A program made the position numbers and the translations under genes. DNA of 64,000 nucleotides from Haliotis cracherodii (Eukaryota): the NCBI RefSeq assembly GCF_022045235.1, contig NW_027266277.1, positions 5,456,001 to 5,520,000 of the forward strand, written 5' to 3'. Below are positions 12,502 through 57,119 of the stretch, piece after piece; positions within the stretch are counted from its first letter, which is position 1, and every line of letters starts with the position of its first letter. The notes beneath the pieces were generated by a model. That model saw only the letters and a list, made by a program, of their open reading frames with translations. It made no database searches and had not been told where the DNA came from.

Positions 12502-14877
12502 ATGACACAGTGTATTCTATATCTTCTCCTCTTTCTCTGTTATGCTGAGGCTGCTCCTCTTATTTCAAGCCCCTGGGGTAAGATTCAAGGAGTCACCCAA
12601 ACCTCACCGACCGGCAAGACGTACAACGCCTATTATGCCATACCTTATGCTCTCTCTCCAACTGGCAAACTCCGGTTCCGACCGCCAAGTCCACATCCAG
12701 GTGTTATAGAAGTCTGGCAGGCCACACAGTATGGCCCAGTTTGTAGTCAGCAAGGTTTTGGCTTCGGCATTTTGAATATTCCTTCGAGCGAGGACTGTCT
12801 GACGTTAGGCGTCCATGTACCAACATCCGGAGGTTCTGGAAAGTCTGTTATGGTTTGGATCCATGGTGGATCGTTTAAGACGGGCGGTGCTCCACTGTAT
12901 GAGCCGTGGAAGCTGGTGACAGAGGAGGACGTCATCGTTGTGGTTGTCCAGTACAGACTGGGTGTGTTCGGATTCCTCTCAACACGCAACGCTGAAGCTC
13001 CGGGTAACTTTGGGTTACTTGACCAGGTTCTCGCATTGGAATGGGTTCAGAAAAATATTGGATCATTTGGAGGAGATCCTGACAGTGTCACCATTGTCGG
13101 GGAGTCTGCGGGGTCAGCTAGCGTGTCCCTCCATACCCTGTCTCCTGTGTCCAAGGGACTCTTCAAAAGAGCTATAATGCAGAGTGGAGCTGCCACAGCG
13201 TATTGGGCGAATGACAAAAGATACAGAGAGAAGCTTGACCAAATTTCCTCAGCCGTGAATTGTTCTGGGATGGCGACAGACAAGCAGACCGTTGCCTGTC
13301 TAAGAGGCCTACCTGCTAGTGTTCTTCTCACGGCGACGGATGGAATGGATTCCGAGCCTGTTGTTGATGGATATTTCATGCCAGCTGATCCTGCTACCTT
13401 GATCCAGAACGTAACGTACCTCACAGATCTAGGGTTTTATTGCATGGACGCATTGGTTGGTGTCAATAACAACGAGGGCGGGCTACTGCTTGAGAACGCT
13501 AGATCTTCCGATGCTCGAGATAACACGTCCACTGCTGAAACACTGAATTCAACATACGTCTATGACAAAACACTCGTTCCCAATATCTTAAAGTCAACTT
13601 ATGGACAGTATGACGCCATTTTGGCTGACGTCATATCATACGAGTACACGTCACCGCGAACAGAGAACCAGAAAACCCTCGATATCAATGATGTTCTCCA
13701 CACTTACGGTGATGTCACATTCGTCGCCCCTGCAGTCGCGTATGCCCGGCGACACTCCGACAACAGAAAAAATGGCGGGAGGGGCAAAACCTATTTCTAT
13801 TATTTCAATCATTACCCATCATTCTCTGCAGGAAGTGGCACACAGGGAATGTACCATGCATTCGACCTTCCATATATGTTTGGCCTCAGTTCAACATCAG
13901 TATCCCTCTTCGGACTTTTCGGACCCATCACAAAGGATGAACAGACCCTGTCAAACACATTTGTAAACTTCCTGACGGCGTTTGCTAAAACAGGGTAGGT
14001 ACATAAAGAATTACAGACAGTTATGCACTAGTTACACATTGATTGATCCTCTTAATTATTTGTTCAAATTTATTTCCTAAAATATATTTTAAACATAATA
14101 TACAAACTCTCTTTCCGTTTCACACACATTGACAATTTAGTAGCGAATCAATATTGACAAGGGCAACACATTTTACATCGATTACAGGGAGTCCAGCAAG
14201 ATGTTTCGGAATGACGTGATCGTGGAGTTAAGTGTTGACAGAAATGTGGTAGGAATACTGAACTCCTCTGTTTAGGGATCTCTAGTGAATTTAAATATAG
14301 GACGGACATGGCGAACAAAATATTTGCGAAGCTTGTGGTTAATATTTCAGACAAAACCCACACAAGGCATGTAGGCCATGATGTGATTCTGCAGAAGGGA
14401 CATAACTCACAGCTGTCATCAATAATATCGTATCACTGGTATTTTACACATGTTTGTATTACCGGGTTCTTTCAGAAAATGTCCAACTTTCTCAATATTC
14501 GGCAAAAGATAATGGTATCAATCGAAAATGTAATTCATTGACTCCGGTAATAAATTCGGCGATAAATAATCAACTTAACAATAATCGTAACAGTGATATA
14601 TTATGACAGCGGATATATCCTGGTATACAGGGGGTGGTTTGGTTGTAGAAATCCCAGTTCAGCCGTGCAGCTTCCCCTGGGTGGTACATGGGAACAGTTT
14701 GACGGCCAGGATGAAGCCTACCTCTCCTTCACCACCAACATGACCCTGGAGCATCACCTGCAGGCTAAACGTGTCTCCTTCTGGCTCCATCTGATGCCGG
14801 AGCTCTTTCAGCTCGAGCGGGCTAAACTCACGGCTCCAGGCATCGGACACCAAGGCACAGACATGCTGGTGGGGTGA
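12502..14877 (+). CDS. Secreted type-B carboxylesterase (CES-B), about 573 aa, 2 coding exons
   Basis: Exon 1 is 12502-13994 and exon 2 is 14649-14877 (phase-2 intron in KTG|NP; total 1722 nt, in frame). Signal peptide MTQCILYLLLFLCYAEA; motifs SEDCL, WIHGGSF, GESAG (Ser), NNNEG (Glu), YHAFD (His). No TM and no HxEL. AATAAA lies just after the stop. Confidence 0.92.
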
Positions 14878-26326: not shown

Positions 26327-28096
26327 CGTCATCAACTAAGCATCCAATGAAAGTGTTTTTTTAAGATCATTCAATCACTTGTAAAGTATGCAATGCCAGC
26401 ATGGAGCTTTCTGAAAGAAGTTTGTACAGGGACTAACGCCAAGGGCACATATATGCCTGTTGCTGGCTTGGTACTTCCACTGAGGCTATGCGAGAGACTA
26501 ACACCAGCGAGCGTCAAAATGTCGACAAGAAGACGACAGTACTCGAGAAATCCGTAATTCAACAGTGTCCGTCAATATCACCGCATAGTTGGAGAGTAGT
26601 TATGTAAGCTCGCTCTCTCTCAAGAACATGTGACATTTTACTTCCATTTGCATTGTACATTCATTGTTAAAGATATACAAATGTGACGTTTGAAACATAC
26701 TTCACCCTATAGAAAATTTAGAACCGTCACGTCATGACTTCCACTTGTTCAATGGCATCAACGGCGCATCTGACTTCTTAAATAGATCAAGCAGAAACAG
26801 AACTTGCTTAATTACCTTCGAATGAGATAACTAAAAAAAGACCTGTGTGAGTGTCAGTAAGTTCGGCTAATGCTATGAAAGCAGCTCAGAGTTTTGCTTA
26901 TCTTGTATGAGTGGTCAAACTACGCTTGGTCTTTTACGGTTTCGAATAATTCGGGGACAGTTGATGACGCGTTAAGACATAATCAGCGTCCGTGTCACCG
27001 ATACCGCACATTACCGCTGTCATCTGACGAATGTAGCTATGGAACAGTTGTACGAGGAACAGTTTTCCACGCTACATTTACACTGTCAGTATTTGTTCCG
27101 GGTGGAACTACTTCCACATGGAACTGATGATCGTTGACAGCTGCACCATGGAAGCTGTACGCATCGTCAGACTCGCCTCCTTTTGTCATTGCTTCAAGTA
27201 GACATTATAAATATTAAATGATTGTAATCAATTACTATATGCAAATTTCAAACAATTAGCTCAATTTAAAACGTCATTCCCCATATTATTCGATGTTATT
27301 ATTTATTGTACAAGATCTCTTCAGTGTCTGTAGACAAAATTTAGATAATAAATATACACTTTTCAAATAAAGTGTGAAACAAATCAAGTATTGTCTGTTT
27401 TGTTAAACATATTCCATGCTGGGATCGTGAGTAACTTCCTGTACATTGTGTTCGCTGTGATGTCAGCAACGCAAGCTGCGTATATAAGTATCCATCAGCT
27501 TTCCGCCTAACCATGAGATTAAACTAGTCACATTCGATTGCTGTACAGTTATGTTTGTGTCAATTATATTAAGAAGATGGCTTTAAGGTTCGAAAATCAT
27601 AGGGAAGGGAAGTAACTCCTTTGAGTCTGAGGCAGTTGAAGTCAGCAGCCATATAATGAGATATGTTGAGAAATGAAAAGTCGTCGGACCGCGTTCTGTT
27701 TTGTAAACATCATAGGGGACCACGTACGGGGTTGGCTGAATGGACCTGAGCCGAAGGATGTCTGGTACACCTTTTACAGCTCATATGTGTTATAAGTACA
27801 GTTTTCTCCATGTTTACGTGCTGCATTTCAATCAAATACACAACTAGGCAGTATATTTCAGCAGGCTTCACAATTACTAGGTATTTTCTATTGATGATAG
27901 GCACACAGTTTTCAGCAGAAGTACCAGAATTAGTGAGTCATTACTGTTATTTCCATCACTGCTTGGTATGAGTTCGTTTATTGTTATTTCTTCGCGATCA
28001 GTTTTCTCCTCACTGAATAGCCTTCTATAACTGTTTCTTAATTTGCAATATTGAGATAATTCGTTAATATCCCCACTTCTCGTTAAATTGTTCACA

Positions 28097-29170
28097 TGCC
28101 TCGTCACACCATACAGCTTGATCATCCTGTGTAGCATTGCAATGCTTAACTTGTAGGCCACTTGCCTCGTCACACCATACAGCTTGGTCATACCGTGTAG
28201 CATTGCAATGCTTAACTTGTAGGACACTTGCCTTGTCACACCATACAGCTTGGTCATACCGTGTAGCATTGCAATGCTTAACTTATGGGCCACTTGCCTC
28301 GTCACACCATACAGCTTGTTCATCCCGTGTAGCATTGCAATGCTTAACTTATAGGCCACTTGCCTCGTCACACCATACAGCTTGGTCATACCGTGTAGCA
28401 TTGCAATGCTTAACTTATGGGCCACTTGCCTCGTCACACCATACAGCTTGTTCATCTCGTGTAGCATTGCAATGCTTAACTTGTAGGCCACTTGCCTCGT
28501 CACACCATACAGCTTGGTCATCCCTTGTAGCATTGCAATGCTTAACTTGGAGGCCACTTGCCTCGTCACACCATACAGCTTGGTCATCCCGTGTAGCATT
28601 GCAATGCTTAACTTATAGGCCACTTGCCTCGTCACACCATACAGCTTGGTCATCCCGTGTAGCATTGCAATGCTTAACTTATAGGCCACTTGCCTCGTCA
28701 CACCATACAGCTTGTTCATCCCGTGTAGCATTGCAATGCTTAACTTATAGGCCACTTGCCTCGTCACACCATACAGCTTGGTCATCCCGTGTAGCATTGC
28801 AATGATTAACTTGTAGGCCACTTGCCTCGTCACACCATACAGCTTGGTCATCCCGTGTAGCATTGCAATGCTTAACTTGTAGGCCACTTGCCTCGTCACA
28901 CCATACAGCTTGGTCATCCCGTGTAGCATTGCAATGCTTAACTTATAGGCCACTTGCCTCGTCACACCATACAGCTTGGTCATACCGTGTAGCATTGCAA
29001 TGCTTAACTTATAGGCCACTTGCCTCGTCACACCATACAGCTTGTTCATCCCGTGTAGCATTGCAATGCTTAACTTATAGGCCACTTGCCTCGTCACACC
29101 ATACAGCTTGGTCATCCCGTGTAGCATTGCAATGATTAACTTGTAGACCGCATGCATCGTCACACCATAC
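28097..29170. repeat. 66-bp minisatellite (about 16 units) with an internal 14-bp palindrome
   Basis: Unit TGCCTCGTCACACCATACAGCTTGGTCATCCCGTGTAGCATTGCAATGCTTAACTTATAGGCCACT contains AGCATTGCAATGCT. Confidence 0.96.
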
Positions 29171-29269
29171 AGCCACATGCCGAAGCGCAGGTTTGTAATG
29201 TCTCGGTAATTGACAGCGAGATCGACGTTCGCTGTCAACAACTGAGAACACTGATCAAGGCTAAAGGCA

Positions 29270-30534: not shown

Positions 30535-32129
30535 GGCTGGATATGACGCGAGGTATATGACGTCAGTAGAACTACTGGGTTTGACGCTCAGTATATAACG
30601 TCAGTAGAACTGCTGGGTATGACGATCAGTATATAACGTCAGTAGAACTGCTGGGTATGACGCTCAGTATATAACGTCAGTAGAACTACTGGGTATGACG
30701 CTCAGTATATGACGTCAGTAGAACTGCTGGGTATGATGCTCAGTATATAACGTCAGTAGAACTGCTGGGTATGATGCTCAGTATATAACGTCAGTAGAAC
30801 TGATGGGTATGACGCTCAGTATATAACGTCAGTAGAACTGCTGGGTATGACGCTCAGTATATGACGTCAGTAGAACTGCTGGGTATGACACTCAGTATAT
30901 AACGTCAGTAGAACTGCTGGGTATGACGCTCAGTATATGACGTTAGTAGAACCACTGGGTATGACGCTCAATATATAACGTCAGTAGAACTGCTGGGTAT
31001 GACGCTCAGTATATAACGTCAGTAAAACTGCTGGGTATGACGATCAGTAGAACTGCTGGGTATGACGTTCAGTATATAACGTCAGTAGAACTACTGGGTA
31101 TGACGCTCAGTATATAACGACAGTAGAACTACTGGGTATGACGCTCAGTATATAACGTCAGTAGAACTACTGGGTATGACGCTCAGTATATGACGTCAGT
31201 AGAACTGCTGGGTATGATGCTCAGTATATAACGTCAGTAGAACTGATGGGTATGATGCTCAGTATATAACGTCAGTAGAACTGCTGGGTATGACGCTCAG
31301 TATATAACGTCAGTAGAACTGCTGGGTATGACGCTCAGTATATGACGTCAGTAGAACTGCTGGGTATGACGCTCAGTATATAACGTGAGTAGAACTGCTG
31401 GGTATGACGCTCAGTATATGACGTCAGTAGAACTGCTGGGTATGACGCTCAATATATAACGTCAGTAGAACTCCTGGGTATGACGCTCAGTATATAACGT
31501 CAGTAGAACTACTGGGTATGACGCTCAGTATATAACGTCAGTAGAACTGCTGGGTATGACGATCAGTATATAACGTCAGTAGAAGAGCTGGGTATGACGA
31601 TCAGTAGAACTGCTGGGTATGACGTTCAGTATATAACGTCAGTAGAAGAGCTGGGTATGACGATCAGTAGAACTGCTGGGTATGACGATCAGTATATAAC
31701 GTCAGTAGAAGAGCTGGGTATGACGATCAGTAGAACTACTGGGTATGACGCTCAGTATATAACGTCAGTAGAACTGCTGGGTATGACGTTCAGTATATAA
31801 CGTCAGTAGAACTACTGGGTATGACGCTCAGTATATAACGTCAGTAGAACTACTGGGTATGACGCTCAGTATATAACGTCAGTAGGACTGCTGGGTATGA
31901 CGTTCAGTATATAACGTCAGTAGAACTACTGGGTATGACGCTCAGTATATAACGACAGTAGAACTACTGGGTATGACGCTCAGTATATAACGTCAGTAGA
32001 ACTGCTGGGTATGACGTTCAGTATATAACGTCAGTAGAACTACTGGGTATGACGCTCAGTATATAACGTCAGTAGAACTACTGGGTATGACGCTCAGTAT
32101 ATAACGTCAGTAGAACTGCTGGGTATGAC
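30535..32129. repeat. 38-bp minisatellite (about 42 units, homogeneous) with CRE and half-CRE motifs, upstream of CES-C
   Basis: Unit GTATAT(A/G)ACGTCAGTAGAACT(G/A)CTGGGTATGACGCTCA, period 38 (30591, 30629). Confidence 0.96.
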
Positions 32130-32663
32130 ACAAGGCATGTGACGTCCGTAGAACGACTGGTTGAGGCGTCACATTTAAAACACCGGGAGGGCAGCCAACC
32201 CCAACCGGTATCAATCGACAGGCTGTGTTTATGATAAAGATAACGATAAAAAGGTCAATATTTACTAATACTTTGGACTTCAGGCTGGAAAGGACGCTCC
32301 GCCCACCATGTGTCCAGAGACGATATCTCACGTACACTTCCTGCCAGATTACAAGTCACCTGACTCTCCCGTATACACACGCATGGTACACACCACCCAC
32401 GCACGCATGATACAGGGCCGTGAGAGTAGATTGTGCGGACTGTGTACAGTGCGAGCATAGGTCATTATATGAATACAAGTTTCACATCTAAATCCCTGCA
32501 ACACCTTACTCTCGTATACGTTACATTATAAATTTTCCGAACAGTGATTACAGAAAACGACATTTCGCAATAGTCAAGATCAGGGTCAAGAAGCACAGGC
32601 GAGGAGCGACGGGATAGTAACTGATGAAAGTCAGTTTGTTGTTCGATGTACCAAACTTTTCAT

Positions 32664-34742
32664 ATGGATCAGCTGATTATTGTGGCCTTGTTGATCCTCC
32701 CTGTGATGGGGAGGGAGGCACCAGTGATAAATGCAACCTGGGGACGTATACAGGGCGTCACGAGAACCAGTAGAGACGGACTACCTTACTTTGGCTACTA
32801 CGGAATCCCGTACGCGACACCTCCAGTGGGAGATTTCAGATTCAGAAAACCCAAAGCACATCCAGGAGTTTCTGACATATTTAATGCTTCCAGCTATGGA
32901 CTGCCATGTCTTCAGCAATCACCAATGCTCCCTCTGAACATCTCCTTTCCAGCCATGAGTGAAGACTGTCTCACCCTGAATGTGTTTCTGCCCAACACAA
33001 CTGAGGTATCGTCCAGCGTGCCTGTGATGGTCTGGATCCACGGGGGAGGGTTTGTGTATGGAGCTGCTTCTTTGTACGAGCCTTGGCAATTGGTGACAAA
33101 AGGTGACGTCATCGTCGTCACCATCCAGTACAGGCTGGGGATATTCGGATTTTTCAGTACCGAAAATGACGTCGCACCTGGTAACTACGGATTATGGGAT
33201 CAGCACCTGGCACTCCAGTGGGTCAAGGACAATATTGAAGCGTTTGGTGGTGACAGTAGCAACATCACCATCATTGGAGAATCTGCAGGGGCGGCGAGTG
33301 TCGCGTATCACGTGCTGTACCCTGAGTCAAAGGGGTTGTTCCAGAGGGCAGTTCTACAGAGTGGAGCTGCCACGTCTCTCTGGGCGATCAACAGACATGT
33401 CAGATTTCAAGCGTCGTATATGGGATACATCTTAGGGTGTGATAAAATAAGTAACCAACGAGCAATGGTAGACTGTATGAGGAAGAACGATAGTGCGTCA
33501 ATTTTAGGTTATTCCTACTTTGGAGGGACACCAGCCTACGAACTAATGCAGTACACGTGGGTCCCGACCATTGATGGAACCTTTGTCAAAGACGATCCAC
33601 AGGTATTAATGAGAGACATCACTTTCTTAAATACCACATGTATCAAGGACATCGACGTAATGGTAGGGGCTAACAACAACGAAGGGGGACTTCTGCTGAC
33701 GACAGCTCTAGCATTCGACAAGGCGTATGGCTACACATACGCAACCGATATCTTCAAGCAGAAGGAGTTTGATACAGATATTCTTCCAACAGTTACATCA
33801 TTGGCATTAGCAGCTTTCCCTCCATCCATCAATGATATCGTCAGTGTGGAGTACACATACCCGCGACCACCATCTGACGAGCCCCTGCCTCAACAACAAG
33901 TGCTTTCAACCTACGGTGACCCCAGCTTTCTGATACCGGGACTGCTCTTTGCCAGGACGCACGCATCGTTAAACACCAACAGGAGTTGTTATTTCTACCT
34001 GTTTAATCACTACCCATCTTTCGCCAGAGAGAGCCCTGTGAAAGGTATGAGCCATGGAACGGACACCTTGTATCTGTTTGACCTGGACCCGTCCACAGTC
34101 AAGATACTTGGCTACACAGGGAACCTGACGTCAGAGGAGTATGAGCTGGCAGAAACATTTGTCTCTTTCATTGCTGACTTTGCCAAGACAGGGTACGTAA
34201 CTGGTCTTAAGTAAAACATGATCCTTTTTGCACCATGACAATGGAATAACAAATGACCTTGTACTTATGCATACCCCAATATTGTTACATTCCCTCAATT
34301 GCGAGGAATGAACAGTCCTTTATTCATCTGTATTTCAAAGTATTGACTTTATTTTCACAGTGACCCCAGTCCTACCTTTGAAGAAAAACTTGGGCAGGCA
34401 TGGCCCGAGTACAAGATGTACGACCAGCGTTATCTGTCCTTCACAACAAACATGTCACTAGGTGACCACGTGTACCCCAGGCGAGTGACCCTGTGGCTGG
34501 ACATCATCCCGAACCTCGTGAACATCCCGACTACATCTACAGCTTCCACGTCATCTACATCCACTACAACAACATCTACATCTGCCCCTACATGGTTCGG
34601 GCTAGACCCTCACACGGCCGAAGTGACTATCCTGGCCCTCATCGTAACTCTGTGTGTCGTCGGCATGTTGCTGGTTACATTAGCAGTGTGCTGCTGTTTG
34701 AAGCGGAGGAAACACGGAGTGGAAGGATATGCACTAACATGA
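32664..34742 (+). CDS. Type-I membrane-anchored type-B carboxylesterase (CES-C), about 636 aa
   Basis: Exon 1 is 32664-34192 and exon 2 is 34361-34742 (1911 nt). Signal peptide MDQLIIVALLILPVMG; WIHGGGF, GESAG, NNNEG, SHGTD; Ser/Thr stalk; TM VTILALIVTLCVVGMLLVTLAVCCCL; KRRK and a short tail. Confidence 0.93.
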
Positions 34743-35354
34743 GACCAACAGATCTCAGGGGTATTTACAGCTTTGTGTCAAGTTTAGATCATGAGGCCGA
34801 TAATCAGTTGACGATCATGCTTATAATAATATTACTGGACTACATTCAACGAGATGGTGGGATTGTAGCAACTTGATAATTCATTCTGTCAAGCATATAA
34901 AGGAAATACAATAAATCTAGCGTGTTTTTCATCAACCAACAAAAGACGTCATTATATCAACTCTAATTTGGCCAATAACATTGATGTAAAGTGTTCCTGG
35001 TCGACGTGTCAATAATAAATAGCGACAATGTTGTTTCTTTTGGGGAGGGTTCCCAAACAGTCAGAATTAGACATCAGTATGCAGTCAAGTCGTGCCCCTG
35101 GAACATGTACAGGCTATTTTACAGGCAATGACGCTGGTCCTGGGGAAGGAATGGGGCGAGGCACACAGAGCCGTCCTAGATATATAAATGTTCATTGTCT
35201 CACCTCGTGCCAGATTCGTTCACTGCTCTATATAACAGCATCCGCTTATGTTACACAGTAACAGCTGTACCTATGGCATCTCTCGGCAAGTTTTACAATA
35301 TTAGCAAAGGTACACCAAAATGAACTTCACACACTGTAGGGTACCCCATGCACT

Positions 35355-36385
35355 GAACGCTAGGTATATGACGTCAGTTGAATTCCTGGGCATGGCGCTA
35401 GGTATATGACGTCAGTAGAACACCTGGGCATGACGCTAGGTACATGACGTCACTAGAACTCCTGGACACGACGCTCGGTACATGACGTCAGTTGAACTCC
35501 TGGTTATGATGCTTTGTATGTGACGCTACGTGTACGAAGTCGGCAGAACTAATGGAGATGACGTCAATAGACCCCCTGAGCATATCGCTAGTTACATGGC
35601 GCCTTAGGAGAACTCCTGGGTAAGACGCTAGGTATATGACATCAGTAGAGCTGATGGGCATGGATCTAGGAATATGACGTCAGGAGAACTGATGGGCATG
35701 ACGCTAGTTATATGACGTCAGTTGAGCTGCTGGGTATGAAGCCAGGTATATGACGTCAGCAGAACCAGTTAGTATAACAGTAGATATATGACGCCAGGAG
35801 AACTACTAGATATGGCGCTAGGTATATGACGACAGGAAAACTGATGGGTATAATGCTAGGCATATGACGTCAGGTGAGCTCCTGGGCATGACGCTAGATA
35901 TATGCCGTCAGGAAAACTGCTGGATATGAGGCTCGGTATATGACGTCAGGAGAACTACTGAGCATGATGCTGGGTATATGACGTCTGGAAAACTGCCGGT
36001 TATGAGGCTGGGTATATTACGCTAGGACAACTTTTGTGTTTGAGGCTTGGTATATGACTTCAAGACGACTGCTGGGTATGAGGCTCGGTATATGACGTCA
36101 GGACAGCTTCTGGGTATGACGCTGGGTATATGACGCAAGGAAAACTGCTGGGTAGGAGGCTTGGTATATGACGTCAGGAGAACCGCTGGGTATATGACGT
36201 CAGGACAGCTAATGGGTATGAGGCTTGGTATATTACTCTAGGACAACTGCTGGTTCTGAGTATGGTTCTATGTATATTACGTCAGGACAACTGCTGGGTA
36301 TGAGACTCGGTATATTACGTCAGGAGAACTGCTGGGTATGGCTCTAGGTATATGGCGTCAGGAGAACTGCTGGGTATGCGCTAGG
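35355..36385. repeat. Degenerate 38-bp minisatellite (same family as 30535-32129), upstream of CES-D
   Basis: Unit approximately CGCTAGGTATATGACGTCAG(T/G)AGAACTGCTGGGTATGA, period 38. Counted 13 perfect TGACGTCA. Confidence 0.9.
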
Positions 36386-36830
36386 CTTGTACTGCTTGTA
36401 TGTGTACAGGCTGTGTTTCTTAATCCGGAAACAGATAAAGGCTGGTCAATAAAGGACCATCCCCGCACACCGTGTGTCAAGAGACGATGTCACGTACAAG
36501 CACCTCTAAGATTACAGGTCACGTGACTTTATTCACATACAAGACAAACACCAACCACACCGTGTATAATACAGTGCCGCATTCACAGTGTAGATTGACG
36601 TGGCTGTGTTCAGTACCAGTATAGCTCATGATATGAAAGTAAGGTACACATCTAAATCCCCGGAACGCCTCACTCCCGCATCCGTTATCAGTTTGTGTGA
36701 ACAGTGAGTACAGAAAGCGACGAAATGTCGTAATGAACAGTAAACATCTGGGTCAAGAAGCACAGGCGAGGAGCGACGAGGAAGGTTACTGATAAATCCC
36801 AGTTTATTGTTCGATGTAGCGGATGATCAA

Positions 36831-38988
36831 ATGGATCAGCTGATTATTGTGGCCTTGTTGATCCTCCCTGTGATGGGGAGGGAGGCACCAGTGATAAATG
36901 CAACCTGGGGACGTATACAGGGCGTCACGAGAACCAGTAGAGACGGACTACCTTACTTTGGCTACTACGGAATCCCGTACGCGACACCTCCAGTGGGAGA
37001 TTTCAGATTCAGAAAACCCAAAGCACATCCAGGAGTTTCTGACATATTTAATGCTTCCAGCTATGGACTGCCATGTCTTCAGCAATCACCAATGCTCCCT
37101 CTGAACATCTCCTTTCCAGCCATGAGTGAAGACTGTCTCACCCTGAATGTGTTTCTGCCCAACACAACTGAGGTATCGTCCAGCGTGCCTGTGATGGTCT
37201 GGATCCACGGGGGAGGGTTTGTGTATGGAGCCGCTTCTTTGTACGAGCCTTGGCAATTGGTGACAAAAGGTGACGTCATCGTCGTCACCATCCAGTACAG
37301 GCTGGGGATATTCGGATTTTTCAGTACCGAAAATGACGTCGCACCTGGTAACTACGGATTATGGGATCAGCACCTGGCACTCCAGTGGGTCAAGGACAAT
37401 ATTGAAGCGTTTGGTGGTGACAGTAGCAACATCACCATCATTGGAGAATCTGCAGGGGCGGCGAGTGTCGCGTATCACGTGCTGTACCCTGAGTCAAAGG
37501 GGTTGTTCCAGAGAGCAGTTCTACAGAGTGGAGCTGCCACGTCTCTCTGGGCGATCAACAGACATGTCACGTTTTTGTCAATGTTTGTTGGAAGCAGTTT
37601 AGGTTGCCTCGGTGATGGCCCTGATATAATGAGTAGACAACAAGCAATGGTAGACTGTATGAGGAAGAACGATAGTATGAGAGTGTTAGCCTTTTCGTAT
37701 GTTGGAGGGACACCAGCCTACGAGCTAATGCAGTACACGTGGGTCCCGACCATTGATGGAACCTTTGTCAAAGACGATCCACAGGTATTAATGAGAGACA
37801 TCACTTTCTTAAATACCACATGTATCAAGGACATCGACGTAATGGTAGGGGCTAACAACAACGAAGGGGGACTTCTGCTGACGACAGCTCTAGCATTCGA
37901 CAAGGCGTATGGCTACACATACGCAACCGATATCTTCAAGCAGAAGGAGTTTGATACAGATATTCTTCCAACAGTTACATCATTGGCATTAGCAGCTTTC
38001 CCTCCATCCATCAATGATATCGTCAGTGTGGAGTACACATACCCGCGACCACCATCTGACGAGCCCCTGCCTCAACAACAAGTGCTTTCAACCTACGGTG
38101 ACCCCAGCTTTCTGATACCGGGACTGCTCTTTGCCAGGACGCACGCATTGTTTAACACCAGCAGGAGTTGTTATTTCTACCTGTTTAATCACTACCCATC
38201 TTTCGCCAGAGAGAGCCCTGTGAAAGGTATGAGCCATGGAACGGACACCTTGTATCTGTTTGACCTGGACCCGTCCACAGTCAAGATACTTGGCTACACA
38301 GGGAACCTGACGTCAGAGGAGTATGAGCTGGCAGATACATTTGTCTCTTTCATTGCTGACTTTGCCAAGACAGGGTACGTAACTGGCCTTATGATGATGT
38401 CATGGTTTCATTTCCATAATCATCATGTAGGATATGTCATCAGCCGACACTTATTAAGTAAAACATGAACTGTTTTTTCCATCACAATGGAATAACAAAT
38501 GACCTTGTACTTATAAATACCGCAGTATTTTTACATTCCCTCAATTGCGAGGAATTAACAGTCCTTTATTCATCTGTATTTCAAAGTATTGACTTTATTT
38601 TCACAGTGACCCCAGTCCTACCTTTGAAGAAAAGCTTGGGCAGGCATGGCCCGAGTACAAGATGTACGACCAGCGTTATCTGTCCTTCACAACAAACATG
38701 TCAGTAGGTGACCACGTGTACCCCAGGCGAGTGACCCTGTGGCTGGACATCATCCCGAACCTCGTGAACATCCCGACTACATCTACAGCTTCCACGTCAT
38801 CTACATCCACTACAACAGCATCTACATCTGCCCCTACATGGTTCGGGCTAGACCCTCACACGGCCGAAGTGACTATCCTGGCCCTCATCGTAACTCTGTG
38901 TGTCGTCGGCATGTTGCTGGTTACATTAGCAGTGTGCTGCTGTTTGAAGCGGAGGAAACACGGAGTGGAAGGATATACAGTAACATGA
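36831..38988 (+). CDS. Type-I membrane-anchored type-B carboxylesterase (CES-D), about 641 aa, near-identical paralogue of CES-C
   Basis: Exon 1 is 36831-38374 and exon 2 is 38607-38988 (1926 nt). Intact triad motifs, stalk and TM as in CES-C. Confidence 0.93.
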
Positions 38989-41682: not shown

Positions 41683-42753
41683 TGTGCAGGCCTCAGTATA
41701 GAACAACAAACATAATAAATAAAACTTTCATAATCTTGTTGACACACGTTAACCTCTCGTTGTACATGATGTTGCCTCTTGAATGTCTCTTACAGAGGAG
41801 GGAGAACCAACCCGTCGTTCTTACAAGCCTGACTTGATAGTCGCCCTGGCCCAGATCATTGGTGACATGAGGATGAAGTGAGGGTCATGATTGTTATTTC
41901 ATACAAATAACAAGAAGTGCCTCATTGTCAGTCCTAGAGAAGTTTTGAAGTTAAAAACTGTATGTGATTATAAATTTGAGGACGACGAGTGGAAGTTGTT
42001 TATCGCACCATACAACACAGCATCTCAGGGTTTATTCTCCCTGCAGTGTTTTATTGTACGATCAACAACTCGTCGTTTATTTCTTTAATGAGATATAAAC
42101 ATTAGGTACAGGCTGTTTAAGGATGTTAGGAAAACGTACACGGTTGAAACATATTTGCCCGTATTTAAATAATGATGACGATAATGTGACGACACCTCAC
42201 CTATGCAGGCATTCTCAAGGCGCCCAGGACTTCGGTCTCTTGAAACAATTACTGTTCCTGGGTTGGCCAGGTGGATCCCCGTGTAGACATGGGCTAAATC
42301 AAGACCTGCTGGGATGCTCGTTAACTCTGTGACATCACTGACATTGACACCTGAGCTGGATATACTGCTAGAAGAGTTGCCCAGCGCAGGAATGTTCGCT
42401 CACTCTTGTACGACATGTTTTGTGATATGCACGTATCCATTTTACCAAATTCCTACAGCTACTCCCCACTCTTTTATCGACTCTTTCATTCCACCTACGG
42501 TCAAAATCATTTGACATACATAAAACTTTTAGTGGTTTTAATTACCTTCATAAATATTCAGTGCATTTGCCTATGCTTGGATACTTTACTGTACTTCAAT
42601 TTACCGTTCGACCACAATATCCACGTTAATTATATCAGAGATTCTATCATGAATGGGCCATCAGAGAATTTTTACAAGGATAGTCTCTAAGGTTTCAAAG
42701 GGAAATGCTAGTTTTAGTTCCACAATATCCACGGCTGCCGGCGATATGTTCAT

Positions 42754-44913
42754 TCAGTAGAGAGAGAAGCTCTGTTGGTCGTGAGAGGAACGACTCTTGA
42801 TGCAAAAGCACGTTACAGTTACAACCAGCACAGGGGTCAACGCGCCGGGTGAGGAGCCCATCACTATGACTGCAACTCTTGAGTTGTCAGGGCACCCTGG
42901 TGACGGTGGTGACGATGTTGGGGCGGATGAATGCGTTGTTGGTTGCAAAACTGGCGATGGCCCTTCATTCAGCCTTGGGACAAGATCAAGCCAAAGCGAG
43001 GCTCTTTTGGAGTAAAGGTGACGTCCGATTGACATATTGACGTTGAAAGACAGATATTATTCATTTGAGACGTCAAACTCAGGCCATGGCATAGCTAACT
43101 GTGTCTCCAGCACTGAATTGGGATCACTGAAACAAAAACAACTTTAAGTAAGAGAGTAATTATTCACTGCACAAATATACAAACATGTCACAAATAATGA
43201 TTAAAGAGGTTTGTTTCATTATCAGCCACCACAAAACATGGTGTATTCTTTTATTGCCCGGGAGGTTAGCTAGATAGATACATTCTATAATTCCCGGATT
43301 CTGTATCTTACATGCCTATCTGAATTATTTAGGAAGTGTATACAAACAAATACACATCTCAAGCAATAATCATTTCAGGACAATAGCAAAGCTGCACACA
43401 CTCACCCCGATTTTGCAAAGGCCCCGATGAATGCTGTGAAGTTGTCCGCCAGCTGATACTCCTCACTGGTGATGTTTGTATTGTTTGGGTCCAGCTGACC
43501 AAACAGATACCGGATGTCCATACCGTGCACCATCCCTTTCACTGGAGAGTCTCTTGTGAACGACGGGTAATGGTCAAATAAATACAAGTAGGTTTTCTTG
43601 TCTGCCTTGAATATGTAATGAACTCTGGAAAACAATATGGCTGGCACGTAAAATGCCGGATCTCCGTAGGTCTCGAAGACCTGGTACTGTGGTAGACTCA
43701 TAGTAGCATTAGGGCGTGGATAGGTGTATGTAAATCCAATGACATCATCGACGTGTGGGCCGTGATGTCCTAACGTCAGATTAGTTACCATTGGCAGGAC
43801 GTCTGTGTCGTATGGCGCTGGTTGGAATAGCTGTTTGACATATGTTGTGTTCAGTAACCTGTCAAACATAACAGCAACATCATACAGGATCCCCCCTTCG
43901 TTGTTATTGACGCCTACTAGGACGTCAACGTCTTTCAGGACGGTACTGGACAGAAACGTGTGGTTCAACATGAGTTTCGCTGGTTCATCATGTATAAACT
44001 TTCCATCCTTTGTTGGCAGCCATGACAGGACCAACAGGTTATGGGCCATTGAACCGTTTATCACAGAAGAACGAAGAAGTTTGTCCACGGATTGTGTTCG
44101 CAAACATTTCATTATGTTGCTCGGCTTAGCAAAGGAATCGGTCATACAACCAGCAGCCTTGGCGACAAGCATCAGCGTCGCCATTGGGTTTCTTTTGTAC
44201 GCCCAGACAGGCGTGGCAGCTCCACTCTGTAGAACTGCTCTCTGGAACAGTCCCCCTGACTCTGGGTACAGCACGTGATACGCGACACTCGCCGCCCCTG
44301 CAGATTCTCCAATGATAGTGATGTTGCTACTGTCACCACCAAAAGCTTCAATATTGTTCTTGACCCACTGGAGTGCCAGGTGCTGATCCCATAATCCGTA
44401 GTTACCAGGTGCGACGTCATTTCCGGTACTGATGAACCCGAATATTCCCAGCCTGTACTGGATGGTGACGACGATGACCCCGGTCTCAGTCACCAGTTTC
44501 CATGGCTCATACTCTACAGCAGCGCCAGACATAAACCCTCCTCCGTGTATCCACACCATCACAGGCGTTTGAGTCGACCACACAGTGGAATTGGGCAGGA
44601 ATACATTCAACGTGAGACAGTCCTCATCTGAGAGGTTTAAGTTCATATATTTGAATGATGGACACGCATAACCATACGCTGTTGCATTGAACACATCGTT
44701 TACTCCAGGGTGACGTTCCGGTTTGTTGAACCTCAGATTGCCTGTTGGGGGTTTCGCGTATGGTATTCCATAGTAACCAAAGTACGGAAGTCCATCTTTG
44801 CTAACTTTATCCACACCTTGTATCTGTCCCCACGTAGCGTTGACCTCTGGCGCGGACAGCACAGACCACGGGACGCAGCCTAGAACCAGAAGCCAGAGAA
44901 CTGAGAGTCTCAT
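42754..44913 (-). CDS. Type-B carboxylesterase (CES-E); intact exon 1, premature TAA in exon 2 (truncated allele or young pseudogene)
   Basis: Exon 1 is 44913-43406 and exon 2 is 43126-42754 (1881 nt in frame). Signal peptide MRLSVLWLLVLGCVPWSVLS; WIHGGGF, GESAG, NNNEG, VHGMD. In-frame TAA at 43059-43057 (PWPEFDVSNE*YLSF). A probable 5'UTR acceptor TTTTCCAG lies just upstream of 44921. Confidence 0.85.
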
Positions 44914-45559
44914 TGTGGAACCTGGAAAACTGTTGACTAAAACTTGTACGCTGTCCTCACACACGTCCTCACACACGTCCTCACACACGTCAATCTAATT
45001 TGTGAAACATTTTGCGTTAAACATTACAAAAGACCTGAATGTAGAATCCGTAAGCGGTAGGTGTGGATAACAGCGGTCTATACCTTTCACGTATCGCTAG
45101 TGCAATGTACTTGGCGCACCTACAACCATGTGACGGTTATCAGAAATGTGATACAGCTTGCTCGGAGGTATTGTCTTACTGAAATGATTGTGGCTGAGGT
45201 CACCTTATATACTGCTATAGTATCTATACACAACACTTATAAAGAGAACTGAAGGCGTTTGTGAAGAAAAAATACAAAATATTACTGCAATGTGAGTGTC
45301 TAAAGAATATCATATTAGGCATCAGTTTAGTTCTTAGTACATACGACGATATCGTTTATCAGTAGATAATATAAGGCCAAGACAAATTGATTGCTTGATC
45401 GTTTAAACTGTTACTTTTCTTTAAATACAAATATCTTAGTATTGTTCTTTATGAGATTCGTTGATCTACAAAACTACCTCAGTTGGAAGGAATCCACTGA
45501 ATGAAGGTCGAAGGAATCTACTCAACCAATGGGGAAGGAATCCACTGAAACAAGGTGAG

Positions 45560-45960: not shown

Positions 45961-48760
45961 GGGGCAGTGTGTGGGTAATGACAGTGTAGGGATAGTGGGT
46001 GTGTGGGTAATGACAGTGTAGGGATAGTGGGTGTGTGGGTGATGAGTGTGTAGGGGTAGTGGGTGGGTGGGTGATGAGTGTGTAGGGGTAGCGGGTGTGG
46101 GGGTAATGACAGTGTAGGGGTAGTGGGTGTGTGGGTAATGACAGTGTAGGGGTAGTGGGTGTGTGGGTGATGAGTGTGTAGGGGTAGTGGGTGTGTGGGT
46201 GATGACAGTGTAGGGGTAGTGGGTGTGTGGGTAATGACAGTGTAGGGGTAGTGGGTGTGTGGGTGATTAGTGTGTAGGGGTAGCGGGTGTGTGGGTAATG
46301 GCAGTGTAGTGGTAGTGTGTGTGTGGGTAATGAGAGTGTAGGGGTAGTGTGTGCGTGGGTAATGACAGTGTAAGGGTAGTGGGTGTGTGGGTAATGACAG
46401 TGTAGGGGTAGTGGGTGTGTGGGTGATGGCAGTGTAGGGGTAGTGGGTGTGTGGGTGATGAGTGTGTAGGGGTAGCGGGTGTGTGGGTGATGGCAGTGTG
46501 GGGAAGTGGCTGTGTGGGTAATGACAGTGTAGGGAAGTGGCTGTGTGGGTAATGACAGTGTAGGGAAGTGGCTGTGTGGGTAATGACAGTGTAGGGAAGT
46601 GGCTGTGTGGGTAATGACAGTGTAGGGGTAGCGGGTGTGTGAATGATGAGAGTGTAGGGTAGTGGGTGTGTGGGTAATGAAGGTGTAGGGGTAGTGGGTG
46701 TGTGGGTAATGACAGTGTAGGGAAGTAGCTGTGTGGGTGATGAGGGTGTAGGGAAGTGGGTGTGTGGGTGATGGCAGTGTAGGGGTAGTTGGTGTGTGGG
46801 TAATGAGGGTGTAGGGGTAGCGGGTGTGTAGGTGATGGCAGTGTGGGGAAGTGGCTGTGTGGGTAATGACAGTGTAGGGAAGTGGCTGTGTGGGTAATGA
46901 CAGTGTAGGGGTAGCGGGTGTGTGAATGATGAGAGTGTAGGGTAGTGGGTGTGTGGGTAATGAAGGTGTAGGGGTAGTGGGTGTGTGGGTAATGACAGTG
47001 TAGGGAAGTGGCTGTGTGGGTAATGACAGTGTAGGGGTAGCGGGTGTGTGAATGATGAGAGTGTAGGGTAGTGGGTGTGTGGGTAATGAAGGTGTAGGGG
47101 TAGTGGGTGTGTGGGTAATGACAGTGTAGGGAAGTAGCTGTGTGGGTAATGACAGTGTAGGGAAGTGGCTGTGTGGGTGATGACAGTGTAGGGAAGTAGC
47201 TGTGTGGGTAATGACAGTGTAGGGAAGTGGGTGTGTGGGTGATGAGTGTGTAGGGGTAGCGGGTGTGTGAATGATGAGAGTGTAGGGAAGTGGGTGTGTG
47301 GGTAATGACAGTGTAGGGGTAGTGGGTGTGTGGGTAATGACAGTGTAGGGAAGTAGCTGTGTGGGTAATGAGAGTGTAGGGAAGTGGCTGTGTGGGTGAT
47401 GAGGGTGTAGGGGTAGCGGGTGTGTGGGTAATGAGGGTGTAGGGGTAGCGGGTGTGTCGGTAATGAGTGTGTATGGGTAGCGGGTGTGTGGGTGATTAGT
47501 GTGTAGGGAAGTGGATGTGTGGGTGATGAGGGTGTAGGGAAGTGGGTGTGTGGGTGATGGCAGTGTAGGGGTAGTTGGTGTGTGGGTAATGAGGGTGTAG
47601 GGGTAGCGGGTGTGTGGGTAATGACAGTGTAGGGAAGTGGCTGTGTGGGTAACGAAAGTGTAGGGGTAGTGGGTGTGTGGGTGATGAGTGTGTAGGGGTA
47701 GCGGGTGTGTGGGTGATGGCAGTGTGGGGAAGTGGCTGTGTGGGTAATGACAGTGTAGGGAAGTGGCTGTGTGGGTAATGACAGTGTAGGGAAGTGGCTG
47801 TGTGGGTAATGACAGTGTAGGGAAGTGGCTGTGTGGGTAATGACAGTGTAGGGGTAGCGGGTGTGTGAATGATGAGAGTGTAGGGTAGTGGGTGTGTGGG
47901 TAATGAAGGTGTAGGGGTAGTGGGTGTGTGGGTAATGACAGTGTAGGGAAGTAGCTGTGTGGGTAATGACAGTGTAGGGAAGTGGCTGTGTGGGTGATGA
48001 CAGTGTAGGGAAGTAGCTGTGTGGGTAATGACAGTGTAGGGAAGTGGGTGTGTGGGTGATGAGTGTGTAGGGGTAGTGGGTGTGTAGGTGATGGCAGTGT
48101 GGGGAAGTGGCTGTGTGGGTAATGAGAGTGTAGGGAAGTGGCTGTGTGGGTAATGACAGTGTAGGGGTAGTGGGTGTGTGGGTAATGACAGTGTAGGGAA
48201 GTAGCTGTGTGGGTAATGAGAGTGTAGGGAAGTGGCTGTGTGGGTGATGAGGGTGTAGGGGTAGCGGGTGTGTGGGTAATGAGGGTGTAGGGGTAGCGGG
48301 TGTGTCGGTAATGAGTGTGTATGGGTAGCGGGTGTGTGGGTGATTAGTGTGTAGGGAAGTGGATGTGTGGGTGATGAGGGTGTAGGGAAGTGGGTGTGTG
48401 GGTGATGGCAGTGTAGGGGTAGTTGGTGTGTGGGTAATGAGGGTGTAGGGGTAGCGGGTGTGTGGGTAATGACAGTGTAGGGAAGTGGCTGTGTGGGTAA
48501 CGAAAGTGTAGGGAAGTGGGTGTGTGGGTGATGAGGGTGTAGGGGTAGTGGGTGTGGGTGTGGGTGTAATGAGAGTGTAAAGGTAGTGGATATGTGGGTA
48601 ATGAGAGTGTAGAGTTGTGGGCGTGTGGGTAATGAGAGTGTAGGGGTGATGGGTGTGGGGGTAATGAGGGTGTAGGGGTAGTGGGTGTGGGGAGGGTGGG
48701 TATTGAGAGTGTAGAGTTGTCGGGGTGTGAGTAATGAGAGTGTAGGCGTAATGGGTGTAC
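45961..48760. repeat. G/T-rich 31-32-bp minisatellite (about 88 units), upstream of CES-E
   Basis: Units GTGTGTGGGTAATGACAGTGTAGGGGTAGTGG (32) and GGGAAGTGGCTGTGTGGGTAATGACAGTGTA (31). Explains the Pro/His/Thr-rich ORFs. Confidence 0.96.
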
Positions 48761-53607: not shown

Positions 53608-55077
53608 TACTGAGAGGCACAAATAACGCATACTCAAATTTAAGTGTCAATTTTTTACTGAAATGAAATATACAAATGACAATCAATACAAATGACTAAT
53701 TAAAGATTACACTGATGAATTTCATGAACAGTTACTGTGTGACAATGAATTAACGTCTATGAAATTGACGTCAAAGGCGAGTGGTGTTAATAACGAGTGT
53801 GTCCTTGTGCAGCAATGCACGCTTGAAGCCTGAGAGACAGTCGATGAATTGCAGCCTGAGGAATACGTCTCCAATGGTGCAGGAGAGCTTGAGTCAGTTC
53901 TGGAACCATCTGTGGAGGATTTTGTTGACGTCTGGCACGGCGGCCAAGTTCATCCCACAAATGTTCTATAGGGTTCAAATCTGGGGACCTTGAAGGCCAC
54001 TTCAACACATTAACGTTGTTCTGTTGCAAGAAGGCATTTGTTATCCTGGCAGTGTGAGGCCTTGCATTGTCATGTTGAAAGACATGGCGACGTAAACCAC
54101 GTTGAGTCAGTAATGGCAGCAGAACAGGCTGTAGAACGTTGTCGATGTAACGTCTGGCATTAAGGTTCCCCTGAATAACAAGATCCGAGCGGAAATTTGC
54201 ATTGATTGTTCCCCAAACCATAATACCTCCACCTTCAAACCGATCACGTTCAATAACACATGGTTGTGTAAATCGTTCATGTTGGCGTCGGTATACACGT
54301 AAACGTCCATCAGGGTAGCTGACTGTGAAACGTGATTCATCAGAAAAAAAACAACTTTTCTCCAATCTCTACTACCGAGATTACCTCCACCAGCTGCCCA
54401 TCGCTGCCGTGCTAGGCTGTGTGCCTGAGTCAAGATTTGTCCACACCTCAAATTCCTGGCAGCAAGACGACGACGCACTGTACGGTCACTGATGTGTCTT
54501 CCACGGAGACCAATGGTTGCATTTGCCATTGACCTGGCAGACGTGAAGCGATTTCTGAGGTGGCTGTTAACGATTTGACGATCTTGTCTATGTGACGTCA
54601 CAGGCGGTGCACCTGGTCGAGGACGGTCCCTTACGCTGCCTGTGGTTCCCAACCTCTCATGTAATCTCGATATTGTCGTTTGATGGCAATGGAAATGAGC
54701 AGCAACTTGTTCTTAGGTACGACCAGCATTTAACATCCCCATTGCTTCATTACGCTGATCTTGCGTTAACCGTGGCATTGTGTAGGCAAATGATGGCAAA
54801 ATGCCATGGTGTGCATTTATAGGGCCTATCTTTTGAGGTTTGCACGTGCATCATGCCTTTCACAAAATGTGCATCGATAGCAGCATTCCTAGGGGTGTGT
54901 TGCGTTTTGGTGATTGGCTTCGTTTCCAGAAACAGTTTTTGTTTGCAACCCATATGACATGTTTACAGTTATAACCAACAATGGACAGTGTCAACAAGGT
55001 AAAATGTAAACGGACCTCATATGTTCTTAAAAAATTATATCTTAAAATTGAGTATGCGTTTCTAATGCCTCTCTGTA
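53608..55077 (-). mobile_element. Full-length Tc1-like DD34E transposon (inactivated transposase)
   Basis: TIRs TACTGAGAGGCACAAATAACGCATACTCAAATTTAAG / CTTAAAATTGAGTATGCGTTTCTAATGCCTCTCTGTA. Transposase runs 54778-53787 (MPRLTQDQRNEA.., FSDES, QHDNA-x34-E SPDLNPIE) with a stop and a frameshift. Confidence 0.93.
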
Positions 55078-55616: not shown

Positions 55617-57119
55617 TACTCTTCAAAAGAAGACACTTGACACTGACTTTCAAAATGTAATATAATGCGAGTGTTTCAAAATAGGACACAGAAACCATAA
55701 TTGAAACACTGTTTGAAGATCAATGTACACAATGTTCAAAACATTAATCGTGTCACCTAGACGGACACACGTACACGATGCAGTTAATGTCACAGGGGTA
55801 CAGAAAATGTCAGTATCGGTTGTGCCCACCACGTGCAACAATCACCGCTTGACACCGACGACCCATAGATGCAATCAAGTTGTCAATAACACGCTGTTGG
55901 ATGTGCTGCCATTCATGCTGAAGTGCATCAAGAAGCGCCGGAAGTGTTTGGGGCGGTGGATTCCTTCTGCGAACGCGTCAATCCAACTCGTCCCACAGAT
56001 GCTCAATCGGGGACAAATCTGGTGACCGGGCTGGCCAAGGTAATGTCTGGATGTTGTTGTGCTGTAAGAAGTCCTGACAAACACGTGCAATATGCGGTCG
56101 AGCGTTGTCCTGCTGGAACTGTCCGCAATGAACGTTGACGTGAGGAAGAACGTAAGGCTGTAGGATCAAGTCTCTAACGCACACCTGTCAATGCACCTGC
56201 CACATGCACGAGAGGCGTCCTACCACCGTGATGAATTCCAGCCCATACCATGACACTCCCGCCGACAAATGGGACAACCTGCTGCACACAGTTGGGGGCG
56301 TAACGTTCACCCCGACGTCTGTAGACACGTGCGCGCCCATCAGCACGTGTGAGTAGGAAACGGGACTCGTCAGTAAACAGTACATTTCTCCACCTTGCAC
56401 GTGCCCATCTAACCCTCTGTTGGCACCAAAGCAGACGGTCCGCCAAATGACGTGTTGTCAATACATGACGTCGAACAGGTCCTCGTGCAAAAAGTCCAGC
56501 CTCCCTCAGTCTGTTGCGTACCGTTTGATCTGATATTCTGCGTACCCCAGGGATCTGTGCGGTTGTAGACGTGGCTGTGGTAGTGCGGTCTCGGAGGTGT
56601 CGCAGCCGGATGTATCGATCTTGTGCTTGGGTTGTCACCCTTGGTCTGTCGTCAACTCTGTTGGTGTTGTTGTATCGGGTCCACAGTGCGGAGATTGTCT
56701 GTCTGGATACGCCAAAGTGCCTGGCCACTTCTTGCTGAGTTGCTCCAGCTTGTAATCTCCCAATGGCGTTGTTCCGTTGAGCTGCATTCAGTCTTGGCAT
56801 TCTGTCCCCGCCTCTACTGCCGTTATAAGGACTGTATGAACAGCCGTTGATGTGGATTTTTATACCCACTCAGCAGGGGGGCCTGCATGCCTAAATGTAG
56901 GATCCTGTGCTGCACGTTTTTTTACAGGCGGTTGCGTTTGGATGAAGCTGTAAAATTGATCCCCAAACGCCACGTTTATGTGCTTTGCATGTGTTTTCGC
57001 GAATTATAGACACATCATCTTTCTGTTTGACTTATTTAGTTCTCATTTAATGTAATTATTTTAGATATTTGGCAAAAAGTGGTTTTACATCTATGTCAAG
57101 TTTCTTTTTTTCAAGAGTA
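55617..57119 (-). mobile_element. Full-length Tc1-like DD34E transposon, second family (frameshifted)
   Basis: TIRs CTCTTCAAAAGAAGACACTTGACA / TGTCAAGTTTCTTTTTTTCAAGAG in a TATA context. Transposase from 56800: MPRLNAAQRNNAIG..FTDES..QQDNARPH..SPDLSPIEHLWDE, with frameshifts near 56180 and 55980. Confidence 0.93.

What the first reader, a model, noticed from the sequence alone, without database searches (positions are those of the whole stretch)
33403..37704. CES-C and CES-D are almost identical except for one sharply bounded divergent patch near the putative acyl-pocket region
Seen: exon 1 differs by only 2 silent changes that I could find in the first 735 bp or so, and by a handful in the last 670 bp. 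In contrast, 33403-33522 versus 37570-37704 is strongly divergent (RFQASYMGYILGCDKISNQR-AMVDCMRKNDS-ASILGYSYF vs TFLSMFVGSSLGCLGDGPDIMSRQQ-AMVDCMRKNDS-MRVLAFSYV, +5 aa), while both Cys are kept. Known: in cholinesterase-fold enzymes this segment holds the second disulfide loop (C254-C265 in Torpedo AChE) and leads into the acyl-pocket loop before xPxxDG. Inference: conversion homogenises the scaffold while selection protects a specificity cassette.
Basis: partly seen in the sequence, partly recalled or inferred. Interest (0 to 1): 0.7.

Follow-up and report, generated by a model that had tools for sequence, protein, structure and literature searches.

The report
Conversion-resistant cap patch in abalone esterases
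Two neighbouring abalone esterase genes are almost identical, likely through repeated copying between them, except for one 45-residue segment whose two versions recur in three abalone species, likely because selection keeps two different enzymes; it is a clear new example of a known pattern.

Summary
CES-C and CES-D, tandem membrane-anchored carboxylesterases identical to records labelled Haliotis cracherodii, differ at 12 of 1788 coding bases outside the patch but 35 of 120 (plus a 15-bp indel) inside it; promoters differ by 21%. Short-read contigs from other studies support both genes and both patches. Homologues from H. rubra and H. asinina show the key point: scaffolds group by species, patches group by type (C or D) across species (AU p<1e-4 both ways), so the duplication is old, the scaffold is converted and the patch is not. 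The same segment shows no peak in 7 of 7 comparisons from three other esterase arrays. Selection is the likelier cause (about 0.6), but dN/dS is 0.44 and the segment evolves fast between orthologues, so neutral escape is not excluded. Correction: the patch is the 'cap' subdomain; the acyl-pocket equivalents lie outside it and are identical, and three diagnostic residues sit on the helix face that is polar in the family. Known pattern (opsins, Drosophila, pig liver esterases); new case.

The parts
32664..34192 (+). CES-C exon 1 coding part: signal peptide and carboxylesterase domain; triad Ser 33282, Glu 33681, His 34053 (NCBI model starts 6 codons earlier)
   Evidence: (spliced product equals P0001 minus 6 N-terminal residues)
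33403..33519 (+). C-type cap patch (C residues 247-286): sub-patch 1 33403-33460 with the 15-bp deletion, identical core 33461-33494, sub-patch 2 33495-33519
34193..34360 (+). CES-C intron; ends near-identical to D, middle diverged, 65 bp shorter than D
34361..34742 (+). CES-C exon 2: end of domain, Ser/Thr-rich stalk, predicted transmembrane helix, short tail
36831..38374 (+). CES-D exon 1 coding part; triad Ser 37449, Glu 37863, His 38235
   Evidence: (spliced product equals P0027)
37570..37701 (+). D-type cap patch (D residues 247-291): helix 246-256, Cys259 loop, helix 266-279 with Cys276, helix 282-288
38375..38606 (+). CES-D intron, GT..AG, skipped in a contig of run X8
   Evidence: table 5
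38607..38988 (+). CES-D exon 2; predicted transmembrane helix about residues 605-626
32290..32663 (+). CES-C upstream region, 21% different from the D upstream region 36451-36830; marks the duplication as old
30536..32129 (.). 38-bp minisatellite (41 copies) upstream of C; part of the duplicated unit
35359..36385 (.). Degenerate 38-bp minisatellite (27 copies) upstream of D
43402..44994 (-). CES-E exon 1 frame, 58% identical outgroup paralogue; its cap is unlike both patches
12502..13998 (+). CES-B exon 1, control: its frameshifted twin CES-A (from 5281) has 0 differences in the 141-bp cap segment 13210-13350

Best explanation
CES-C and CES-D are an old tandem pair of carboxylesterases with predicted membrane anchors whose coding sequences are likely kept alike by repeated gene conversion, while the cap segment (D residues 247-291) has stayed in two versions across three abalone species, likely because selection removes conversions that overwrite it, so that the animal would keep two enzymes with one catalytic core and different caps. 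Shown: sequence pattern, both genes in other samples, trans-species patch types, conflicting trees. Inferred: conversion as the homogenising process (strong), selection as the reason for the island (moderate). Mechanism committed to (inferred): the cap variants change substrate access or docking (gorge rim, side-door channel, or a hydrophobic outer face that meets lipid or a partner), not the acyl pocket itself. C types carry Y252/Y255/I256/Y288/F291; D types carry F/S/S/F/V (L/G/R/F/V in H. asinina).
For: Old flanks (21-23% different) against 0.7% scaffold difference. Scaffold tree groups by species (C+D 92/97; H. asinina C+D1+D2 100/96); patch tree groups C types of three species (95.6/95); each region rejects the other's tree, AU p about 9e-5. 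In 6 overlapping quartets 0 of 20-64 species-grouping sites lie in the patch, while 5 of 6, 5 of 5, 2 of 2, 2 of 2, 7 of 7 and 8 of 8 orthologue-grouping sites do. Species grouping wins in 11 of 14 windows and loses in the 3 that overlap the patch. F58, S482 and F521 are shared by C and D but differ from H. rufescens, H. rubra and H. asinina, which points to conversion after speciation. Five diagnostic residues are the same in 3 of 3 C types. H. rubra and H. asinina keep both types without any indel. Cap divergence is at or below the rest of the exon in 7 of 7 comparisons from three other arrays, 0 of 120 in the pair with a dead copy. Toy neutral model: islands in 0 of 443 and 3 of 451 kept runs at cap replacement rates near the measured one. 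Cap frames the pocket entrance and side door in mouse Ces2c (PMC9655854, passages).
Against: dN/dS in the patch is 0.44, no excess of replacements. Orthologues also diverge 1.6-2.8 times faster in this segment in 6 of 6 comparisons, so the flat-orthologue check of Osada and Innan is not met. The intron middle shows that neutral escape happens in this very pair. The toy model gives islands in 90 of 439 kept runs if the cap is weakly constrained and blocked by an indel from the start, and 11-15 of 60 if it is fully neutral. Residues 252, 255, 256 fall on the helix face that is polar in 88 family members, so they need not touch substrate. No activity data, no model coordinates, no DNA for the H. 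rubra or H. asinina genes.
Confidence: 0.6

Rival explanations
1. Neutral heterology island: conversion is real, but the weakly constrained cap gathered mismatches early, became too different to be copied over, and persists without any functional advantage.
For: Cap evolves 1.6-2.8 times faster between orthologues; dN/dS 0.44; promoter, intron middle and 3' flank escaped too; toy model gives islands in up to 90 of 439 kept runs under loose constraint plus an early indel block. Coding-only concerted evolution with free flanks is known (PMC3924832, section 11).
Against: No peak at this segment in 7 of 7 comparisons from three other arrays; no indel in H. rubra or H. asinina; 0 of 443 and 3 of 451 runs at the measured constraint without an indel; edges are sharp and the patch is narrower here than in the other species (positions 245-246, 292, 298-302 are shared here), so tracts reach its borders.
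Confidence: 0.27
2. One reading: the patch reshapes the acyl pocket and so sets acyl-chain specificity.
For: The patch lies between the W236 and F295/F297 equivalents and ends at the W286 equivalent; the five diagnostic residues are about 240 cubic angstroms bulkier in C than in D (recalled residue volumes); in H. rubra and H. asinina differences extend to 298-302.
Against: W240, M300 and Y302 are identical in C and D here; 252 and 255 point away from the family-buried face. Any effect on the pocket would be second-shell. This is a sub-case of the best explanation, scored apart.
Confidence: 0.15
3. Recent duplication followed by import of the patch from a third gene.
For: Scaffold is 99.3% identical.
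Against: Flanks differ by 21-23%; each patch matches only C and D in the genome (2 matches each; protein search); both types exist in other species; both promoters exist in organism E.
Confidence: 0.04
4. Assembly or polishing artefact, or two alleles laid in tandem.
For: The best DNA holder may be the assembly's own sample; the one raw-read run gave only 12 reads.
Against: In run X5 one 2123-bp contig joins C's 3' end to D's start, unique parts have depth 30-35 and shared coding parts 53-68; run X1 of another study shows 3.6-3.9 against 8.2-9.6 on two of its three long coding contigs (4.4 on the third); organism E shows 12 against 25-34 with breaks at the same patch borders; run X8 holds both patches.
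Confidence: 0.02

Closest known systems
Divergence peaks in duplicates under gene conversion: primate red/green opsin exon 5, Drosophila CG18281/CG17637, Tigriopus GOT1p1/p2 (PMC3924837 and PMC2588116, passages; PMC3728101, abstract)
   Same: Pre-speciation tandem pair, paralogues group by species except in a short block that groups by orthology; cluster of type-N sites amid type-C sites.
   Different: Here orthologue divergence is not flat across the block, dN/dS is below 1, and no function is tied to the block; the block is one structural module of an enzyme.
Pig liver esterase isoenzymes (PMC5047458, passages and section 8 part 1 of 2)
   Same: Same enzyme family, tandem genes at least 96% identical, differences clustered in a few blocks including 285-302 in the cap region.
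   Different: PLE genes have near-identical introns and promoters and several shuffled blocks; here flanks are old, there is one block, and it is trans-species. PLEs are ER-retained; these have a predicted type-I membrane anchor.
Type-B carboxylesterases, Pfam PF00135 (mouse Ces2b/2c/2e, human CES1, cholinesterases, bile-salt-activated lipase, neuroligins)
   Same: Fold (TM-score 0.80-0.83), Ser-Glu-His triad, two disulfides, lid/cap/regulatory modules.
   Different: About 30% identity to all; no AChE choline or acyl-pocket aromatics; catalytic Ser kept unlike neuroligins; substrate not known.
Drosophila amylase and esterase clusters (PMC3924832, section 11; Est-5 seen only as a cited title)
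   Same: [quoted passage not shown]
   Different: No single protected block is described in the passage read.

Membership tests
Carboxylesterase family PF00135 | Score above the Pfam cut-off over the full domain | tested here: met
   454.9 and 444.5 bits against 27, profile 2-515 of 515
Carboxylesterase family PF00135 | Ser-Glu-His triad, oxyanion glycines, two disulfides | tested here: met
   S207, E345, H469, glycines 127-129, C82-C102, C259-C276 in D, same in C; model pLDDT 94.8, TM 0.80-0.83
Carboxylesterase family PF00135 | Ester hydrolysis | not testable with these tools
   No assay
Acetylcholinesterase | Choline-site W86 and acyl-pocket F295/F297 | tested here: not met
   Aligned positions are S94, M300, Y302 (roles from PMC12447245 Table 3)
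Neuroligin | Loss of the catalytic serine (recalled; seen in the aligned neuroligin chains) | tested here: not met
   S207 present although neuroligins top the fold list
Divergence island in concertedly evolving duplicates | Duplication older than speciation | tested here: met
   Both patch types in three species; flanks 21-23% different; both promoters in organism E
Divergence island in concertedly evolving duplicates | Species-grouping sites around, orthologue-grouping sites within the block | tested here: met
   (protein level only)
Selected divergence peak (Teshima-Innan, as applied in PMC2588116) | Flat orthologue divergence across the peak | tested here: not met
   1.6-2.8-fold higher in the patch in 6 of 6 comparisons
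Selected divergence peak (Teshima-Innan, as applied in PMC2588116) | Peak unlikely under neutral conversion | tested here: inconclusive
   Own toy model: 0-1% near the measured constraint, up to about 20% (pooled) under looser settings
Selected divergence peak (Teshima-Innan, as applied in PMC2588116) | Excess of replacement type-N sites; functional difference | not testable with these tools
   No DNA for the other species' genes; no assay

The most novel reading that the evidence does not exclude
The cap is a self-contained specificity module kept in two forms across the genus Haliotis, and it works through an outward-facing aromatic face (F248, Y252, Y255, I256 in C) that selects a lipid surface, bulky substrate or partner for a cell-surface esterase, rather than through the catalytic pocket; the converted scaffold then gives a natural chimera pair that isolates cap function in the cholinesterase fold.
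Probability: 0.2. Interest if true: 0.62.

Novelty: new member of a known kind. Interest (0 to 1): 0.42.

Why it matters
The pair is a natural domain-swap experiment: two enzymes that differ at 8 of 596 residues outside one cap module. If activities differ, the role of the cap in cholinesterase-fold enzymes becomes directly testable with two constructs. It also adds a well-controlled mollusc case (three species, in-genome controls) to the short list of conversion-resistant blocks. Short-read work in abalone will collapse these genes. The evolutionary pattern itself is known and no substrate is identified, which limits the interest.

Tried and rejected
Single-sequence fold failed (pLDDT 34); the 100-sequence fold worked but gives no coordinates, so distances to the active site were not measured. 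Homodimer prediction for D gave no answer (score 0.00 in 2 of 2 runs; no evidence either way). Raw-read run X21 gave 12 reads, of no use. No RNA holder is on record; X8 is RNA by guess only. I first read the D letters at full depth in X5 (33967-33979) as a converted allele and dropped this, because contigs drop variants. Missing cover of C's untranslated ends in X8, and of D's promoter and patch in X11, is not used as evidence. One search had exon borders off by one (exon 2 read out of frame); its exon-2 figures were discarded and redone. A third-gene donor was sought and not found. Papers on bile-salt lipase pocket residues were not found (0 hits; not held); Teshima and Innan 2008 and King 1998 are not held. 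H. rubra fragment P0008 and isoform P0030 were left out of the trees (12 of 14 rows used, 9).
Full report
What is there. The window holds five carboxylesterase genes. CES-C (32664-34742) and CES-D (36831-38988) each have two exons; their spliced products equal database proteins P0001 (less six N-terminal residues) and P0027, which the source labels Haliotis cracherodii. Both score far above the PF00135 cut-off, keep the Ser-Glu-His triad and both disulfides, and end in a Ser/Thr stalk, a predicted transmembrane helix near residues 605-626 and a short tail. Each gene is preceded by a 38-bp minisatellite, so the duplicated unit includes it.

The observation. Confirmed: 2 silent differences in the first 739 coding bases, a patch at 33403-33519 / 37570-37701, then 5 differences to the end of exon 1. 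In the patch 35 of 120 aligned bases and 18 of 40 residues differ, plus a 15-bp indel (pS 0.455, pN 0.25, dN/dS 0.44); outside it 12 of 1788 bases and 8 of 596 residues differ. 0 of 20,000 random placements cluster as much. The patch is two islands around 34 identical bases. Near-identity begins 4 bases before the ATG and ends about 26 bases after the stop; the promoter differs at 77 of 359 aligned bases, the intron middle at 9 of 83 with a 65-bp indel, the distal 3' flank at 13 of 56.

Not an artefact. Of 21 runs listed I laid 8. In X5 a 2123-bp contig links C's 3' end to D's start; unique parts have depth 30-35, shared coding parts 53-68. X1, another study, gives 3.6-3.9 against 8.2 and 9.6, though its 3' coding contig is only 4.4. 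X8 has contigs for both patches and a GT..AG joint at the D intron. In organisms B and E the contigs break at 33462 and at 37541-37568, the borders seen here, and coding contigs have about twice the flank depth; organisms C and D carry the C patch with its deletion. Contigs drop variants, so alleles cannot be read from them, and X5 may be the assembly's own sample.

Old pair, converted scaffold. H. rubra and H. asinina each have a C-type and two D-type genes; H. rufescens has a D-type record only. The scaffold tree groups C with D within species (92/97 here, 100/96 in H. asinina; H. rubra unresolved), the patch tree groups the three C types (95.6/95), and each data set rejects the other tree (AU p about 9e-5; 12 of 14 rows used). 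With fixed topologies the species grouping is best in 11 of 14 windows and worse by 29, 66 and 17 log units in the 3 that overlap the patch. In 6 non-independent quartets no species-grouping site lies in the patch and 29 of 30 orthologue-grouping site counts do. F58, S482 and F521 are shared by C and D and differ from all three other species, which is what conversion after speciation gives. This is the type-C/type-N signature described in PMC2588116 (passages) and reviewed in PMC3924837 (passages). No third donor was found: each patch has 2 matches in the genome, itself and its twin.

Why the island persists. For selection: the five diagnostic residues are unchanged in 3 of 3 C types; the other species keep both types with no indel; the patch is narrower here than in those species, so tracts have reached its edges; and the same segment shows no peak in 7 of 7 comparisons from three other arrays (10 of the 20 loci fetched were used), including 0 of 120 differences in the A/B pair, where A is frameshifted and the flanks are about as old (58 of 279 different). 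In my own toy neutral model (480 runs per setting; runs with scaffold above 1.5% dropped) an island arose in 0 of 443 and 3 of 451 runs at cap replacement rates 0.3 and 0.45, 24 of 434 at 0.7, and 90 of 439 at 0.7 with an indel block from the start; with a fully neutral cap, 11 and 15 of 60 in the two best-fitting settings. Against selection: dN/dS is below 1; orthologues diverge 1.6-2.8 times faster in the segment in 6 of 6 comparisons, so the flatness check of PMC2588116 fails; the intron shows neutral escape in this pair; and a rare event can be picked out after the fact. I put selection at about 0.6 and neutral escape at about 0.27.

Where the patch sits. The model of D (pLDDT 94.8; TM 0.80-0.83 to Ces2, CES1, neuroligins and cholinesterases) shows helix 246-256, the Cys259 loop, helix 266-279 and helix 282-288. 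Against AChE (numbering is chain number minus one; roles from PMC12447245 Table 3, passages) the acyl-pocket residues W236, F295, F297 match W240, M300, Y302, all outside the patch and identical; position 290-291 matches the rim residue W286. Diagnostic positions 252, 255 and 256 are mostly polar in 88 family members and lie 99-160 degrees from the buried face, yet are aromatic or aliphatic in C. So the likely effect is on access or docking, not on the pocket lining. In H. rubra and H. asinina paralogue differences also fall in the lid (85-97) and at 298-302, which fits selection on substrate-gating modules but also their looser constraint.

Known context and novelty. The pattern is known from opsins, a Drosophila transporter pair and copepod GOT1 (PMC3728101, abstract only); clustered blocks in near-identical esterases are known from pig liver esterases (PMC5047458, passages and section 8 part 1 of 2); coding-only concerted evolution from Drosophila amylases (PMC3924832, section 11). 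Searches for this locus found nothing: Haliotis + carboxylesterase + gene conversion, 0 papers; abalone + carboxylesterase + expansion + gene family + tandem, 0; none among 20 of 24 listed or 15 of 106 (listings only). The library lacks most subscription papers, and no supplements were read; genome-paper supplements could mention the array. The scan's index held no note on it. Verdict: real, a new and well-controlled member of a known kind; interest 0.42.

Noticed in passing
window 5281-6770 (CES-A) versus 12502-13998 (CES-B): CES-A has an 8-bp deletion near 5542, a 1-bp deletion near 6634 and a Gly-to-Asp change in the oxyanion motif, yet differs from B at only 44 of 1490 aligned bases while the flanks differ by about 21%: a dead copy still homogenised with its twin.
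   Followed up: partly
window about 42300-43150, minus strand (CES-E exon 2): An in-frame stop truncates CES-E before its stalk and membrane anchor (525 aa against 630 aa in H. rubra and H. asinina): a secreted form, a broken allele or a sequence error.
   Followed up: no
window 37564, run X13 (organism D): A contig matching D begins just before the patch and is preceded by at least 255 unrelated bases, suggesting a 5'-truncated or interrupted D copy; the same run has a 3-bp insertion at 32874-32875, where P0026 has a one-residue insertion.
   Followed up: no
window 33373-33490, run X8: The C patch is present but no contig covers C's own untranslated ends; tip clipping or a C patch within a D transcript cannot be told apart.
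   Followed up: no
L004/L005/L006/L009 and L013/L016/L017: Other esterase arrays have divergence peaks at other places in exon 1, which may be further conversion-resistant blocks; not mapped to residues.
   Followed up: partly
P0028 and P0030 (H. rubra): The two 'isoforms' share exon 1 but differ at many exon-2 positions, as if two exon-2 copies exist.
   Followed up: no
window 1-4353, 28093-29173, 45967-48758: Large tandem repeat arrays that give long spurious open frames.
   Followed up: no
window 53787-54712 and 56174-56869, minus strand: Open frames that look like Tc1/mariner transposase fragments (likeness recalled, not tested).
   Followed up: no
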